Part shown: positions 3,946 to 63,767 of the stretch, in pieces
Position numbering within the stretch: position 1 is the stretch's first letter
Layout of the letters: each line of letters opens with the position of its first letter
Assembly (NCBI GenBank): GCA_012295275.1
Contig: CM022676.1
Location: 7,936,001 to 8,000,000 of the forward strand
Length of the DNA: 64,000 bases
Direction: 5' to 3'
From: Chrysomallon squamiferum
Lineage: Eukaryota > Animalia > Mollusca
Made by a program: the position numbers and the translations under genes
Notes under the pieces: model-generated
What the model saw: only the letters and a program-made list of their open reading frames with translations
Databases searched by the model: none
Told to the model about the DNA's origin: nothing

Positions 3946-3996
3946 ATGAGTAGAAAGTACTGTTCGTGTTACTGGGATGTGTATTGTACGCACAAA
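3946..3996 (+). pseudogene. g1 signal-peptide exon with 7-nt deletion
   Basis: 51 nt versus the 58-nt family consensus; out of phase with exon A. Confidence 0.7.
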
Positions 3997-4494
3997 GTAT
4001 GTACTTTATATTCAGATTACTTATGTCTAACTGAGTTAATCTCATTTCTTTTACAAAGTGTGAAATCTGGGTGAACTTACCGTCATTTCTGGATGACTAA
4101 TGTAAAATGAAATGTATAACTATCAGCTGAACTCTTGAAATATATCTCTTAAAATCTGAAAAAAACAACAACAGAACATAACATAATATAACATAATATA
4201 ACCTAACAGCATAACATAACAATACAGCATAATATCGCAGTCCATAAACACAGTGTACTGTAACGTAATGTAACACAATGTAATACAGTCTAAAATTATG
4301 TAACGAAACATAACAAAACGACATAATCATAATAATAATAATAATAATAATAACAATAATAATAATCATAATAATAAAACGTAACTTGTTGCCAAGTAAA
4401 AATGTAATTATAAAAAATTGGTTTAGATTAATTTAATTTAAATATATATATATATATATATGCACACAGACACACAGACAAACACACACACACA

Positions 4495-4590
4495 GATAGA
4501 TAGATAGATAGATAGATAGATAGATAGATAGATAGATAGATAGATAGATAGATAGATAGATAGTTAGATAGATAGATAGATAGATAGATA
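4495..4590. repeat. (GATA)n microsatellite
   Basis: Direct reading; one of many (CA)n, (GA)n, (TA)n, (AAT)n and (GATA)n tracts in the window. Confidence 0.95.
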
Positions 4591-59800: not shown

Positions 59801-62800
59801 TGTTAAAGTAGGTACTCCGTCAAAGCTGGACCTACATTTCTGGGGCCCTGAAGCTTGAACATGCTTTACAAATTTAACCTGAGTATTTCAGATTATGATT
59901 AGAATGGTGAAGAGATGTGGACTAAAGTCACGTCTGGGGGCCCTACTGGTCTCAAGCTTCGTTAGTTTCATAACAGATCCGCCCCTGTACTCAGAAACGC
60001 CTCTATTTTTCTTCTCCTATACATTGTTGACCTACTTTTTCAGACTTTTTAACGCTTGATTTTCTTTCTAAGTACAAAATGGTCCTATCTAAGTACAAAA
60101 TGCATGAATAGAAAATAGTATACGGATGACTGCGTGTGAAAAAAACTCATTTAATTTCATCAGAAGAGTCAGTGGGTAGCCGCCACTTCGTTCTGCTTCT
60201 AAAACGTGTGTCACAAACCTCTTTCATACTTTTTACATTCGCGAGGTTAACTCTACGAGTTTTCTTTCTGCACACAAACTTGACAGGGCACACACACAAT
60301 CTTTGTTTCCTTTCTTTGTCCAGTGTTTCGCCTCTGACAGCTGGATTCTTTCCCCTGTTTATTATCTAATTTGTTCAGTTTTATTTGATTAGCTTGATTA
60401 ACATTCATACTGAATTGTTTCTTAATTACAGCAAAATCTCTGCTAATTGGTATAATTATTTAATTTTAATCAGGCAAGATTTTTAGTTACTTATAAAATT
60501 GCTTACGTGAAGCAATATCATTTGTTTTTCTTTAAATGTGTTTAATCATAATAAGATGCGTAATTATCTGTTTTTTACAATAGCAAATGTTTAATTAGTT
60601 AAATTATAATATTTACTTAATTAGCTATTTTTAAATTTGTTTAGTTATCATAATAATTATATAATTAACTGTTTTAAAAACGTGATGAATGACGACAATA
60701 AATTAGATATTTCCAAAAATTTGTTTAGTTACAGTACAAGCACTTAATTTGCTATTCTTGAAGTCTGTTTAAATAGTATAACACATACTAAATCAGTTAT
60801 TGTTAAAACTTTATGTATGTATGTAAGTAGGTAACTAGGTATGTATTTACTGACACATCTGTAAACTAATTTCTATCGAGAAAAGTCAAAGTATTATATT
60901 CATAAATACAAAAACAAATTAAAAACTTAGTCCTAGCCCACGTAAAAAAATAAGAAACAAAAACGTGTATAGAATGTATTTACACTGTTGTTCATACAAT
61001 GACAAACCTCGATTGACAAAATAAATCAAAATAATAATAATAATAATAATAATAATAATAATAATAATAATAATAATAATAATAATAAACATTAAAATTA
61101 CCTCTGACTTCCAGAATAATTTCATTACTTTTTTCAGTTCCTGATTTTCCACCACAGCTCCAAATGGTTCCTTGATGAGAGATTTTAACTCGCTTTATTG
61201 TGAGTTGGAAAACGGATTGTGAACAGTTGAATATGTAGGCAGGATTGGGCTGGGGTGGAGTACATCGCCCGTTTTTGTCTACACGCACGTTGTAGTGGAT
61301 GTTGCTCTCAAACCACGTGACAGTGTTGTCGGCCACGTCTGTGGTACAGGTTAAGATAAAAGGAGAGTCAATGTTTCCATAGTAACGAGACGATTTCAAG
61401 TGATGTAGACCTAAATAAATAAAGAAATAAATTTAAAACAATATATTAACACAAATATATAAATAAAGAAATCTCCAAAGATATATATATATAAACAATT
61501 AACAGCTATTAAATGGAATAATTAACGATGTAAATATACAAATAAAGAAATATTTAAAAATTAAAATGTATTAATCATTCTTTTTGTTCGTTTGTTTTTC
61601 TCTGTTTTTATTTTTTCTTATTGTTTTCTTCATTGTTTTGTTTGATTACTTGTTTTGATATTTTTAATTATTATTATTATTTCCTTCTTTCTTTCTTTAA
61701 ATATTCCACCCAGACTTTACAGTTAGTAAATGAGATTAACTCAGATAGAGATAAATAATCTGTATATAAAATACATACCTTGTACGTACAATATACATCC
61801 CAGTAACACGAATACACAGAATAACTTACAACTCATTTCCACTATTTTAGTTTTCATTGCCGTTAACAAAAAATATAGTTTTTACTTTATAATCTTTTCT
61901 TAACTACTTTCTTGTTTCACTGCCGTTAATAAGAATATTTCTTCACTATTTCCTTGTTTGCTAAGTTATAAGGTGTACTGAATATCGATCTGTCGGTACC
62001 TCGTTTTATGAGTACCTAAACAACTGCTATTCAATAAAATACCCTGATTAGAAATTCAGCTGTTCACCTGGTAGCCCAGTTTACACTGCTCTTAAAAAGT
62101 TCAACACGCGTTTTACTCTTTGTAAAGTAAACTCTGGTTGGCTGTTGATGTTTTTAAATGTAGTCGATCCAGTCGACTGAATCCATTAACTTAAGAAAAT
62201 ACGTACTATACAGCGTGCTATTTTGTTACGTGCATATTCGTATGTGTGTATGTGTGTATGTGTGTAAGTGTGTATGTATGCGTGTGTGTTTTATAAATGC
62301 ATGTATGTGTATATGTGTGTGTGTATGTATGCCTTTGATATGTATATGAATGTTGGTGTGGGTGTATATGTGCATGTATGTGTGTGTAACTGCGAATGTG
62401 TGTGTATGTCTAAGTACGTACAGACAGTCTCGTTCAGTTTAATTTTATGAACGTTATCCTCTGCCAGTAGACCGTGTATATAAAAAATGTTACTCCACGT
62501 TCTGTTACCTTTTGCTGAAAGCCTCTTTAAACCTTGGCAATTAATTTCTTTACATCCTGTCGGCTGTAAATTTAGCCGAGAGGAAAAAAGGCATTCTAGT
62601 GTTACTGGGGAGCTATTTCTCACACAATACAACCTACTCATTTCATAATGTTATGTGCTTACTTAGCCTACTATGAGAAAAACTGTAAACCAATTTTAAT
62701 GTAAGTAGGGCATTTATAATTATAGGATCCCCATTATTATATGTACAGTACTGTATAAAGTAACACCATCTCAACCTTAAACCACACATATTTATATTCT

Positions 62801-63767
62801 TTTTCAGTAAACACTTAGTCTACACCAAACTCACTTAAACTGTATTATATTTAGTACTTGCTGCAAAAAACAACAACAACAACAACAAATAATAATAACA
62901 AACACAACTACAGCAATAATAATAATAATAATAATAATAATAATAATAATAATAATAATAATAAATAAATAAATAAAATATTTAATGGTCACTGCTACTT
63001 GAAGTGGGCCAAAAATGTCGCTCCAGAATCTTGTCGACGACAAATTAAAATAATAAAAATAAATAAAAATCTGCGATTAAATTTGAGCACAAGATGCACG
63101 CAAAATGAGAGCAAAGCAAGTGAAATTGACAACTGCGCATGCTTGATCCGTGTCCAGTCCTCCCGAGATGAGTTTTATTTATTTTGTTACGTTTTATTTC
63201 TCAGCTTTGTTCACGTTAAATTAAAGATGGCTGGCGTGGAAAAAAATAACAATTCCATAATGCACTCTTCTGTTGAGCGGTGAGCTTGAGAAAATCGGAC
63301 CGAGTATGAACGCAATCAGGACGGAAGGTGCCGAGTATGTCCGAACAGTGTCGACAGAGAAATATGAGACTAGCTTTAGCCGCTGCTGTCAAAGGTAAAG
63401 TCGAACAGTCGTAACTGTACAGTTCGTAAGTCGACGACAGTCTGTATGTAGGTATGTGTGTTTTTGATTTGTTAAATCAAAACAAACAGTTATTTACAAT
63501 GATTAATATGCAATAAATAAAGTGCATCAAGGAAGAAAAAAATGAAAAGAAAAGAAGATTAACACAAATACAATTGTCCTATAACCGAACTTCAAAAATA
63601 TACTAAGTAATTTTCAAAAAAAAAAAAAAAATGATAATAAATAAATAAATAAATAAATAAATAAATAAATAAATAATAATAATAATAAGTAAATAAATAA
63701 ACAAGAAAAGATGCTCACCATGCACTGCACAAAATACCACAGTTAAGAGAAGGCAGACACGGCTCAT
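56782..63767 (-). CDS. g6: diverged 3-Ig-domain type I receptor paralog (multi-exon gene span)
   Basis: Leader 63719-63767 or 61779-61836, A 61102-61410, B/D-type 59212-59472, I-set 58129-58392, TM 57867-57983, micro-exon 57396-57429, last 56782-56818; GT/AG and phase-compatible. Confidence 0.78.
57396..57429 (-). CDS. g6 micro-exon (34 nt)
   Basis: ttcag|..CRKLSHLKDKT..AG|gtacgt; same length and phase as the g2 micro-exon. Confidence 0.6.
57867..57983 (-). CDS. g6 transmembrane exon
   Basis: 117 nt; CFPTRKKNIFLNIFDDSGKFLVLFIAVLAGIFVLYEIRQ|gtaagt. Confidence 0.7.
58129..58392 (-). CDS. g6 I-set/C2 Ig domain exon
   Basis: 264 nt; LSCSADGNPKPTI..DAGDYTCEADNG (canonical DxGxYxC). Confidence 0.88.
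59212..59472 (-). CDS. g6 B/D-type C2-like Ig exon
   Basis: 261 nt; DGPGSSVHL..SCAASCFVTCRYRW..HGVYTCVARN. Confidence 0.88.
61102..61410 (-). CDS. g6 exon A, V-like Ig
   Basis: 309 nt; SPFILTC..VTWFESN..RC..FNC..QGTIWSCG..SNEIILEVR. Confidence 0.87.
61779..61836 (-). CDS. g6 proximal, family-type signal-peptide exon
   Basis: MSCKLFCVFVLLGCILYVQG|gtatgt. Confidence 0.72.
63719..63767 (-). CDS. g6 distal, distinct signal-peptide exon
   Basis: MSRVCLLLTVVFCAVHG|gtgagc, phase 1; candidate acceptor (tacag) at ~63823 gives a short 5' UTR. Confidence 0.6.

What the first reader, a model, noticed from the sequence alone, without database searches (positions are those of the whole stretch)
3946..63767. 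Tandem Ig-receptor cluster with paired activating (ITAM) and inhibitory (ITIM/ITSM) members in a probable invertebrate
Seen: six paralogous leader-Ig(n)-TM-tail genes plus pseudogene debris in ~60 kb. Their ectodomains are related but the tails differ: g5 has 3 ITAMs, g2 ITIM+ITSM, g3 and g1 NPxY and/or single-Tyr motifs, g6 a C-terminal YxxL. Known: clustered paired receptors with opposing motifs characterise vertebrate CEACAM, SIRP, LILR/KIR and Siglec loci, and Hydractinia Alr allorecognition genes form an Ig cluster with ITAM/ITIM-bearing members. Inference: this is an independently evolved immune or self/non-self receptor locus under birth-and-death evolution. I do not recognise the family by name.
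Basis: partly seen in the sequence, partly recalled or inferred. Interest (0 to 1): 0.92.

Follow-up and report, generated by a model that had tools for sequence, protein, structure and literature searches.

The report
Snail Ig-receptor cluster with modular ITAMs
A cluster of six related immunoglobulin-type surface-receptor genes (two probably dead), likely from a deep-sea vent snail, in which one gene carries three copies of an activating signal motif while two others have lost half of it, so the family is likely a fast-evolving microbe-sensing system whose inhibitory side is only weakly supported and whose expression is untested.

Summary
The cluster is real. Six paralogous leader-Ig-TM loci lie in the window. 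g2, g3, g5 and g6 give open spliced models; g1 and g4 are probable pseudogenes. The closest relatives are 'CEACAM-like' RefSeq models of the vent snail Gigantopelta aegis (50-53% identity in the N-terminal domain), so the host is likely a related gastropod. The activating side is strong: g5 has three ITAMs, one per tandem exon copy (0 of 20,000 shuffles), and the Gigantopelta tails carry an ITAM at the aligned position. In g2 and g3 both copies of that exon lost the second tyrosine half, by substitution and by deletion. The inhibitory side is weak: only g2 matches ITIM/ITSM (3.4% of shuffles give two), and g5's own ITAM halves match the ITIM pattern too. Strict pairing fails: N-terminal domains of g5 and g2/g3 are 57-60% identical, against 80-93% in Xenopus CEACAM pairs. 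The N-terminal V-like domain shows diversifying selection. Splicing and expression were not tested with reads. Verdict: an undescribed molluscan ITAM-receptor family under birth-and-death evolution, working like CEACAM/Alr/FcoR loci but not a member of them. New variant of a known kind.

The parts
3946..10508 (+). g1, probable pseudogene: frameshifted leader (3946-3996), four Ig exons (4618-4926, 6318-6578, 6836-7132, 7426-7686), TM exon (8355-8477), truncated ITAM-type exon remnant near 9340-9397, last exon from 10422 with NPxY
12373..12633 (+). orphan 5'-truncated Ig exon piece (debris)
16673..25292 (+). g2, open model of 635 aa: leader, two tandem N-terminal V-like exons (17308-17619, 18825-19136; the second leader at 18225 has lost its ATG), three more Ig exons, TM (21842-21958), four tail exons
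22696..22742 (+). g2 tail exon 2 with the ITIM match
23271..23375 (+). g2 105-nt ITAM-type exon whose second Tyr codon is replaced by a Glu codon (half-ITAM)
25201..25292 (+). g2 last exon: copy of the ITAM-type exon with the second half deleted; carries the ITSM match
28170..32754 (+). tandem repeats of the upstream-plus-leader unit of g3 (leaders at 28265, 29911, 31683)
31683..37971 (+). g3, open model of 339 aa: leader, two Ig exons (32856-33164, 34734-34994), TM (35615-35728), four tail exons; half-ITAM exon 37221-37325, last exon 37877-37971 with NPxY; no ITIM or ITSM match
40037..40864 (-). inverted debris: intact-looking leader (40807-40864) and frameshifted N-domain exon (about 40037-40304)
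43760..46773 (+). g4, pseudogene: four Ig exons (third frameshifted, fourth internally deleted) and a TM exon; no leader or tail found
48769..54404 (+). g5, open model of 501 aa: leader, three Ig exons (49096-49404, 49922-50233, 50558-50818 with a TG acceptor), TM (51470-51586), five tail exons
52783..52887 (+). g5 ITAM exon 1 (105 nt, YxxL-x8-YxxL)
53502..53606 (+). g5 ITAM exon 2 (105 nt)
54244..54404 (+). g5 last exon with ITAM 3 and the stop codon
56782..61836 (-). g6, divergent open model of 359 aa: leader (61779-61836), three Ig exons (61102-61410, 59212-59472, 58129-58392), TM (57867-57983), tail exons 57396-57429 and, less securely, 56782-56818 ending in YxxL
63719..63767 (-). second, unrelated signal-peptide exon (49 nt, phase 1, GT donor); possibly g6's original leader

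Best explanation
This is a tandem family of single-pass Ig receptor genes, likely from a vent gastropod, whose tails are built from copies of one ITAM exon, and which likely act as microbe-binding receptors with graded signalling: g5 would activate through Syk, while g2 and g3, having lost the second ITAM tyrosine, would signal weakly or dampen. Shown: gene anatomy, three complete ITAMs in g5, the aligned ITAM in Gigantopelta models, loss of the second half-site in both exon copies of g2 and g3, pseudogenes, lineage-specific expansion and faster amino-acid change in the N-terminal domain. Inferred from established ITAM biology and the oyster receptor CgIgR: ligand binding by the N-terminal V-like domain clusters the receptor, a Src-family kinase phosphorylates the tyrosines, Syk or Shark docks by tandem SH2 domains and drives phagocytosis or defence-gene expression. 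Inferred and weak: g2 recruits SHP-2 through its ITIM and ITSM. The ligand (microbial surface) is inferred from diversifying selection and analogy only.
For: Three ITAMs with 8-residue spacers on tandem exons, 0 of 20,000 shuffles. An ITAM at the aligned tail position in 4 of 5 Gigantopelta TM-bearing models examined, the fifth being a frameshifted isoform; this supports the predicted frame and makes the ITAM ancestral. Codon alignment shows TAT replaced by GAA in g2 and g3 and a deletion of about 35 nt in the last exons of g1, g2 and g3. Exon lengths in the four open genes differ only by multiples of three within each class. N domain: M1a vs M2a p=0.035 with four intact sequences and p=0.0004 with six, against 0.97, 0.24 and 0.076 for the other Ig classes. 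The two g2 N-domain copies differ at 15 of 238 nonsynonymous sites against 14 of 962 intron sites, Fisher p=1e-4. Window and Gigantopelta domains form separate clades. The N domain folds as a V-type Ig (pLDDT 92; best Z 12.9, rmsd 1.8 over 94 residues to CD8alpha). Gigantopelta has two SYK-like genes, one shark and one PTPN11 in its annotation table (PMC7895826 supplement). An oyster Ig-ITAM receptor binds bacteria and recruits Syk (PMC6994640).
Against: No transcript evidence for this locus; all splicing is predicted. g5, the key gene, has a mutated acceptor at one Ig exon. dN/dS is high in all exons (0.63-1.0 pooled), which also fits relaxed constraint. The g2 duplicate test is not significant against synonymous sites (2 of 71, p=0.38). 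The site test is my own implementation on 3-6 sequences, recombination can inflate it, and only the six-sequence test, which includes two pseudogenes, survives correction for five tests. One Gigantopelta isoform model shifts frame and loses the ITAM. In Gigantopelta, 4 of about 43 CEACAM-named rows are in the symbiont-organ list, about the 8% expected from 1782 of 21,438 genes. No ligand is known.
Confidence: 0.58

Rival explanations
1. True paired receptors: g2 (inhibitory, SHP-2) and g5 (activating, Syk) see the same ligand, as CEACAM1 and CEACAM3 do.
For: Clustered paralogs with contrasting tails; g2 has an ITIM and an ITSM and has lost both ITAMs; g2 and g5 share the most similar TM exon (79%) and 74-80% identical inner Ig domains. 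Distant molluscan relatives carry classical ITIM plus ITSM tails (P0030 Haliotis, P0126 Mactra).
Against: N domains 57-60% identical with dS 0.20-0.23, against 80-93% and near-absent synonymous change in Xenopus pairs (PMC5112662). g2, g3 and g5 share one strand. ITIM/ITSM matches are chance-prone. No ITIM-only paralog among the Gigantopelta genes found.
Confidence: 0.17
2. All members are activating or trafficking receptors: the single tyrosines of g2, g3 and g6 act as hemITAM-like, NPxY or YxxPhi endocytic signals, and nothing here is inhibitory.
For: g2, g3 and g6 keep an acidic residue three places before a YxxI/L; g3 and g6 have no ITIM or ITSM.
Against: None meets the canonical triacidic hemITAM given in PMC12582321; such loose matches arise in 2-9% of shuffles; two separate losses of the second half-site look like disabling.
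Confidence: 0.12
3. A non-immune adhesion, gamete or self-recognition family that happens to use ITAM signalling.
For: Tandem Ig domains and diversifying selection are also typical of adhesion, fertilisation and allorecognition proteins (general knowledge; Hydractinia Alr, PMC9546547).
Against: The one tested molluscan Ig-ITAM receptor is antibacterial; solitary snails have no known tissue-fusion allorecognition (recalled).
Confidence: 0.09
4. A decaying array: most copies, including g5, are recent pseudogenes and the tail differences are neutral decay.
For: Two of six loci are broken, debris is abundant, g5 has a mutated acceptor, dN/dS is near 1 in several exons.
Against: Four long open models with frame-preserving exon lengths and all six ITAM tyrosine-leucine pairs of g5 kept although its ITAM exons are only 56-71% identical in protein.
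Confidence: 0.04

Closest known systems
Gigantopelta aegis 'CEACAM1/5-like' RefSeq models (XP_041346676.1, XP_041379697.1, XP_041372832.1, XP_041373955.1)
   Same: Same domain types and order, 50-53% identity in the N domain, ITAM at the aligned tail position, at least three genes on one 53-Mb scaffold.
   Different: Separate expansion. Their tails have one ITAM and a short terminal tyrosine motif; no triple-ITAM or half-ITAM member was seen. The names are automatic.
Oyster CgIgR (PMC6994640)
   Same: Molluscan Ig receptor with a TM and an ITAM; binds bacteria and LPS, recruits Syk.
   Different: Described as one gene with five Ig domains and one ITAM; no cluster or contrasting paralog in the abstract and section read. 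Sequence homology not tested.
Hydractinia Alr family (PMC9546547)
   Same: Invertebrate Ig cluster with pseudogenes, one exon per domain, an N-terminal V-set domain, ITAM- and ITIM-bearing members.
   Different: Alr has an Fn3-like membrane-proximal region and mutually unalignable tails, and controls allorecognition; here the proximal domains are Ig and the tails are copies of one exon.
Botryllus FcoR family (PMC12582321)
   Same: Invertebrate Ig receptors with contrasting tyrosine motifs and intergenic recombination.
   Different: FcoR use ITIM/hemITAM, include Sushi domains and are co-receptors paired with FF genes; no full ITAM triplication.
Vertebrate CEACAM1/CEACAM3 paired receptors (PMC5112662)
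   Same: Clustered V-plus-C/I Ig receptors that carry their own ITAM or ITIM/ITSM, with a fast-evolving N domain.
   Different: No close sequence relationship; the N domain here has four cysteines; activating and putative inhibitory N domains are not homogenised.

Membership tests
Paired receptors (definition in PMC5112662) | Members encoded in one gene cluster | tested here: met
   six loci in 60 kb
Paired receptors (definition in PMC5112662) | An activating member with ITAM | tested here: met
   three ITAMs in g5, 0 of 20,000 shuffles; sequence level only
Paired receptors (definition in PMC5112662) | An inhibitory member with ITIM/ITSM | tested here: inconclusive
   g2 only; 27% of shuffles give one match, 3.4% two; g5 ITAM halves match too
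Paired receptors (definition in PMC5112662) | Highly similar ligand-binding domains (80-93% in Xenopus pairs) | tested here: not met
   g5 vs g2 57%, g5 vs g3 60%
Paired receptors (definition in PMC5112662) | Recent gene conversion of the N exon between opposing members | tested here: not met
   dS 0.20-0.23 between g5 and g2/g3 N exons, no lower than in their other Ig exons
Paired receptors (definition in PMC5112662) | Shared ligand and opposite signalling output | not testable with these tools
   needs binding and reporter assays
Vertebrate CEACAM family | Sequence homology beyond the generic Ig fold | tested here: not met
   best vertebrate 'CEACAM5-like' hit E=3.9e-5, 29% identity over 32% of the domain; no CEACAM N domain among 58 PDB sequence hits at E<=1
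Vertebrate CEACAM family | N-terminal IgV-like domain without the core disulfide (recalled) | tested here: not met
   core Cys pair plus a second conserved pair in all N domains but g1's
Hydractinia Alr | Fn3-like extracellular spacer before the TM | tested here: not met
   membrane-proximal exons match Ig_2/Ig_3 above curated cut-offs
Oyster CgIgR | Sequence orthology to CgIgR | not tested
   the CgIgR sequence was not obtained
Canonical hemITAM receptor (PMC12582321) | Three acidic residues, x, then YxxL | tested here: not met
   g2, g3 and g6 meet only a looser one-acid pattern
Gigantopelta 'CEACAM-like' Ig-ITAM family | Four-cysteine V-like N domain, shared inner Ig types and aligned ITAM | tested here: met
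Gigantopelta 'CEACAM-like' Ig-ITAM family | Belongs to the expanded orthogroup OG0000013 of PMC7895826 | not tested
   orthogroup membership lists were not seen; counts only

The most novel reading that the evidence does not exclude
A protostome activating/inhibitory receptor system built from scratch in vent snails: one ITAM exon was triplicated to make a strong activator (g5) and twice half-disabled to make an SHP-recruiting brake (g2), and the balance lets the snail tolerate its endosymbiont while engulfing other microbes.
Probability: 0.2. Interest if true: 0.88.

Novelty: new variant of a known kind. Interest (0 to 1): 0.6.

Why it matters
ITAM/ITIM-bearing Ig clusters are described in vertebrates, Hydractinia and Botryllus; for molluscs my searches found only a single ITAM receptor (oyster CgIgR). 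This locus shows a molluscan family in which signalling strength appears to be rewired by copying, mutating and deleting one 105-nt exon, while the ligand-binding domain diversifies. It gives concrete tails and domains to test how an inhibitory or attenuated receptor arises from an activating one, and candidates for microbe recognition in vent snails. The four-cysteine V-like domain occurs across gastropods and bivalves with ITAM or ITIM/ITSM tails, which points to a wider unannotated molluscan immunoreceptor superfamily.

Tried and rejected
No whole genome is held, so genome-wide copy number and the host's own Syk/SHP genes were not checked. Sequencing-run search: no RNA holder listed; this is no evidence either way. 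No reads were laid on the locus, so splicing, the g5 acceptor, g6's last exon and expression stay open. My first guess of an octopus from base composition was dropped. A search for short exon-sized relatives found none among 167 candidates. The ESM Atlas gave only generic chordate Ig clusters, TM under 0.5. Earlier scan findings: none. ORFs at 62294-62650 and 56441-56689 have no Pfam match and were not used. The Gigantopelta symbiont-organ list does not enrich CEACAM-named genes. Not-in-print claim rests on nine searches of open-access full text; subscription journals, where much mollusc immunology appears, are not covered, and orthogroup member lists in the supplements of PMC7895826 were not seen.
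Full report
Observation. The window is 30% GC and rich in microsatellites. Self-comparison shows repeated exon-intron units, and searches with each exon class place them. Six loci have Ig exons followed by a TM exon. Spliced by coordinates, g2 (11 exons, 635 aa), g3 (8 exons, 339 aa), g5 (10 exons, 501 aa) and g6 (7 exons, 359 aa, minus strand) have no internal stop. 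Their splice sites are AG/GT except the acceptor of g5's third Ig exon, which reads TG; an in-frame AG lies 24 nt further on, and skipping the exon would also keep the frame. g1 has a 51-nt leader instead of 58, which shifts the frame and destroys the signal peptide, lacks both core cysteines of its N domain and has no match to tail exons 1 and 2; g4 has a frameshift, an internal deletion and no leader or tail found. So the count is four plausible genes and two probable pseudogenes, plus orphan leaders and Ig fragments. No reads were laid, so all splicing is predicted.

Domains. Pfam gives Ig matches for 17 of 18 exons at E<0.1; the inner 86-residue type passes curated cut-offs, while only 1 of 7 N-terminal exons does. 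The N domain models with pLDDT 92 and matches V-type domains: TCR V-beta by Foldseek, CD8alpha at Z 12.9, rmsd 1.8 over 94 residues by VIA-align. It has the core cysteine pair, a second conserved pair, and W-x-C in place of Y-x-C. The best 19-residue TM windows of g2, g3 and g5 hold no charged residue, so signalling likely comes from the tail and not from an adaptor (inference).

Host and relatives. The nearest proteins are from the vent snail Gigantopelta aegis at 50-53% N-domain identity; six clusters were found, three on one 53-Mb scaffold, auto-named CEACAM1/5-like or uncharacterized. The host is therefore likely a related gastropod, not G. aegis itself; the species was not determined. A full HMMER search gave 122 hits. 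Of these, 104 re-matched at domain E<1e-4 and 89 showed the four-cysteine signature; 29 of the 89 had a TM and a tail of 10-400 residues, of which 4 have an ITAM (0.1 expected from shuffles; one is a G. aegis protein) and 8 an ITIM/ITSM (2.9 expected; two of the 8 look like TM-boundary artefacts). Of 20 hits looked up, 17 had names and all 17 were molluscs. In trees the g1-g5 N domains form one clade (97/94) apart from Gigantopelta, and inner domains also split by species (94/94): the family predates the split and expanded separately.

Tails. g5 has three YxxL-x8-YxxL motifs, one on each of three tandem exon copies; 0 of 20,000 shuffles give three. Four of five Gigantopelta TM-bearing models carry an ITAM at the aligned place; the fifth is an isoform that shifts frame after the TM. 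This supports the predicted frame and makes the complete ITAM ancestral. In g2 and g3 the same 105-nt exon has the second Tyr codon replaced by Glu, and their last exon, like g1's, is another copy with about 35 nt deleted, removing the second half-site. g2's ITSM and g3's NPxY are thus variants of an ITAM's first half; g2's ITIM sits on the preceding small exon, whose tyrosine is shared by all members but fits the ITIM pattern only in g2. These short matches are weak: 27% of g2 shuffles give one, 3.4% two, and two g5 ITAM halves fit the same pattern. None fits the canonical hemITAM of PMC12582321 (section 13 read). g6's short tail ends in YxxL, but its last exon was picked from 10 candidate acceptors.

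Evolution. Pooled dN/dS is 1.00 for the N exon and 0.63-0.85 for the inner Ig exons. My own M1a/M2a test gives p=0.035 (four intact N exons) and 0.0004 (six, with g1 and g4; g6 left out as saturated), against 0.97, 0.24 and 0.076 for the inner classes; only the six-sequence result survives correction for five tests, and recombination may inflate it. The two g2 N exons differ at 15 of 238 nonsynonymous sites, 2 of 71 synonymous sites and 14 of 962 flanking intron sites (p=1e-4 against introns, 0.38 against synonymous sites). Genes are mosaic: g2 shares its closest TM exon with g5 (79%) but its tail with g3 (74%), while N domains group g1 with g3 and g4 with g5.

Mechanism. Most likely these are microbe-binding receptors with graded output. 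Ligand binding at the variable N domain would cluster the receptor; phosphorylated ITAMs of g5 would recruit Syk or Shark. This rests on established ITAM biology and on oyster CgIgR, which binds bacteria and recruits Syk (PMC6994640, abstract and section 10). G. aegis has SYK-like, shark and PTPN11 rows in its annotation table (PMC7895826 supplement). g2 and g3 would be attenuated forms; g2 may recruit SHP-2. That last step is the weakest.

Comparison. By the definition in PMC5112662 (passages read) paired receptors share 80-93% of the ligand-binding domain, kept alike by gene conversion. Here g5 and g2/g3 share 57-60% with dS 0.20-0.23, so membership fails even though the locus works like such clusters. 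It is not CEACAM by descent, nor Alr (PMC9546547, passages) nor FcoR (PMC12582321, abstract and section 13). PMC7895826 (passages and supplement rows) lists an expanded 'CEACAM5' orthogroup, 130 genes in G. aegis and 101 in Chrysomallon squamiferum, without mention of ITAMs in the passages seen; whether this family is part of it is untested, and 4 of about 43 CEACAM-named rows in the symbiont-organ list is no enrichment. A review of invertebrate IgSF (PMC11999971, passages) names only the oyster receptor as a molluscan ITAM case. Nine searches of the open-access library found no description of this family's tails (listings only, apart from the papers named).

Verdict. Real, undescribed beyond automatic names, and a clear case of signalling tails rebuilt from one exon. 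New variant of a known kind, interest 0.6.

Noticed in passing
window 1-2035 vs 38153-40273: Inverted duplicate at 98-99.6% identity ending at the 200-N gap (2036-2235); either a very recent duplication or an assembly artefact.
   Followed up: no
window 61779-61836 and 63719-63767 (minus): g6's Ig exons are saturated against g1-g5 (dS above 1), yet its proximal leader is 52-55 of 58 nt identical to theirs; an unrelated leader lies upstream. The family leader unit may have been copied into g6 recently.
   Followed up: partly
window 16558-19630: g2 carries a 1.55-kb tandem duplication of leader plus N exon (93.6% identical); the second leader lost its ATG, so the two N exons could be used together or alternatively.
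   Followed up: partly
window 14280-15350 (minus): GC-richer insert with a frameshifted DDE_3 transposase piece (E=0.0016, below cut-off), likely a Tc1/mariner remnant.
   Followed up: partly
window 46830-46890 (minus), 55012-55069 and 55435-55493 (plus): Further orphan leader copies, damaged or partial, in both orientations.
   Followed up: partly
P0010, P0011, P0005 (Gigantopelta isoform models): One gene has models lacking the N domain, lacking the TM exon (soluble), or with a frameshifted ITAM-less tail.
   Followed up: partly
P0031, P0041 (Mya), P0030 (Haliotis), P0126 (Mactra), P0014 (Dreissena): The four-cysteine V-like domain recurs in other molluscs with ITAM or ITIM+ITSM tails; two Mya ITAM genes share a scaffold, and a Dreissena cluster has 36 members made of tandem copies with many isoforms.
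   Followed up: partly
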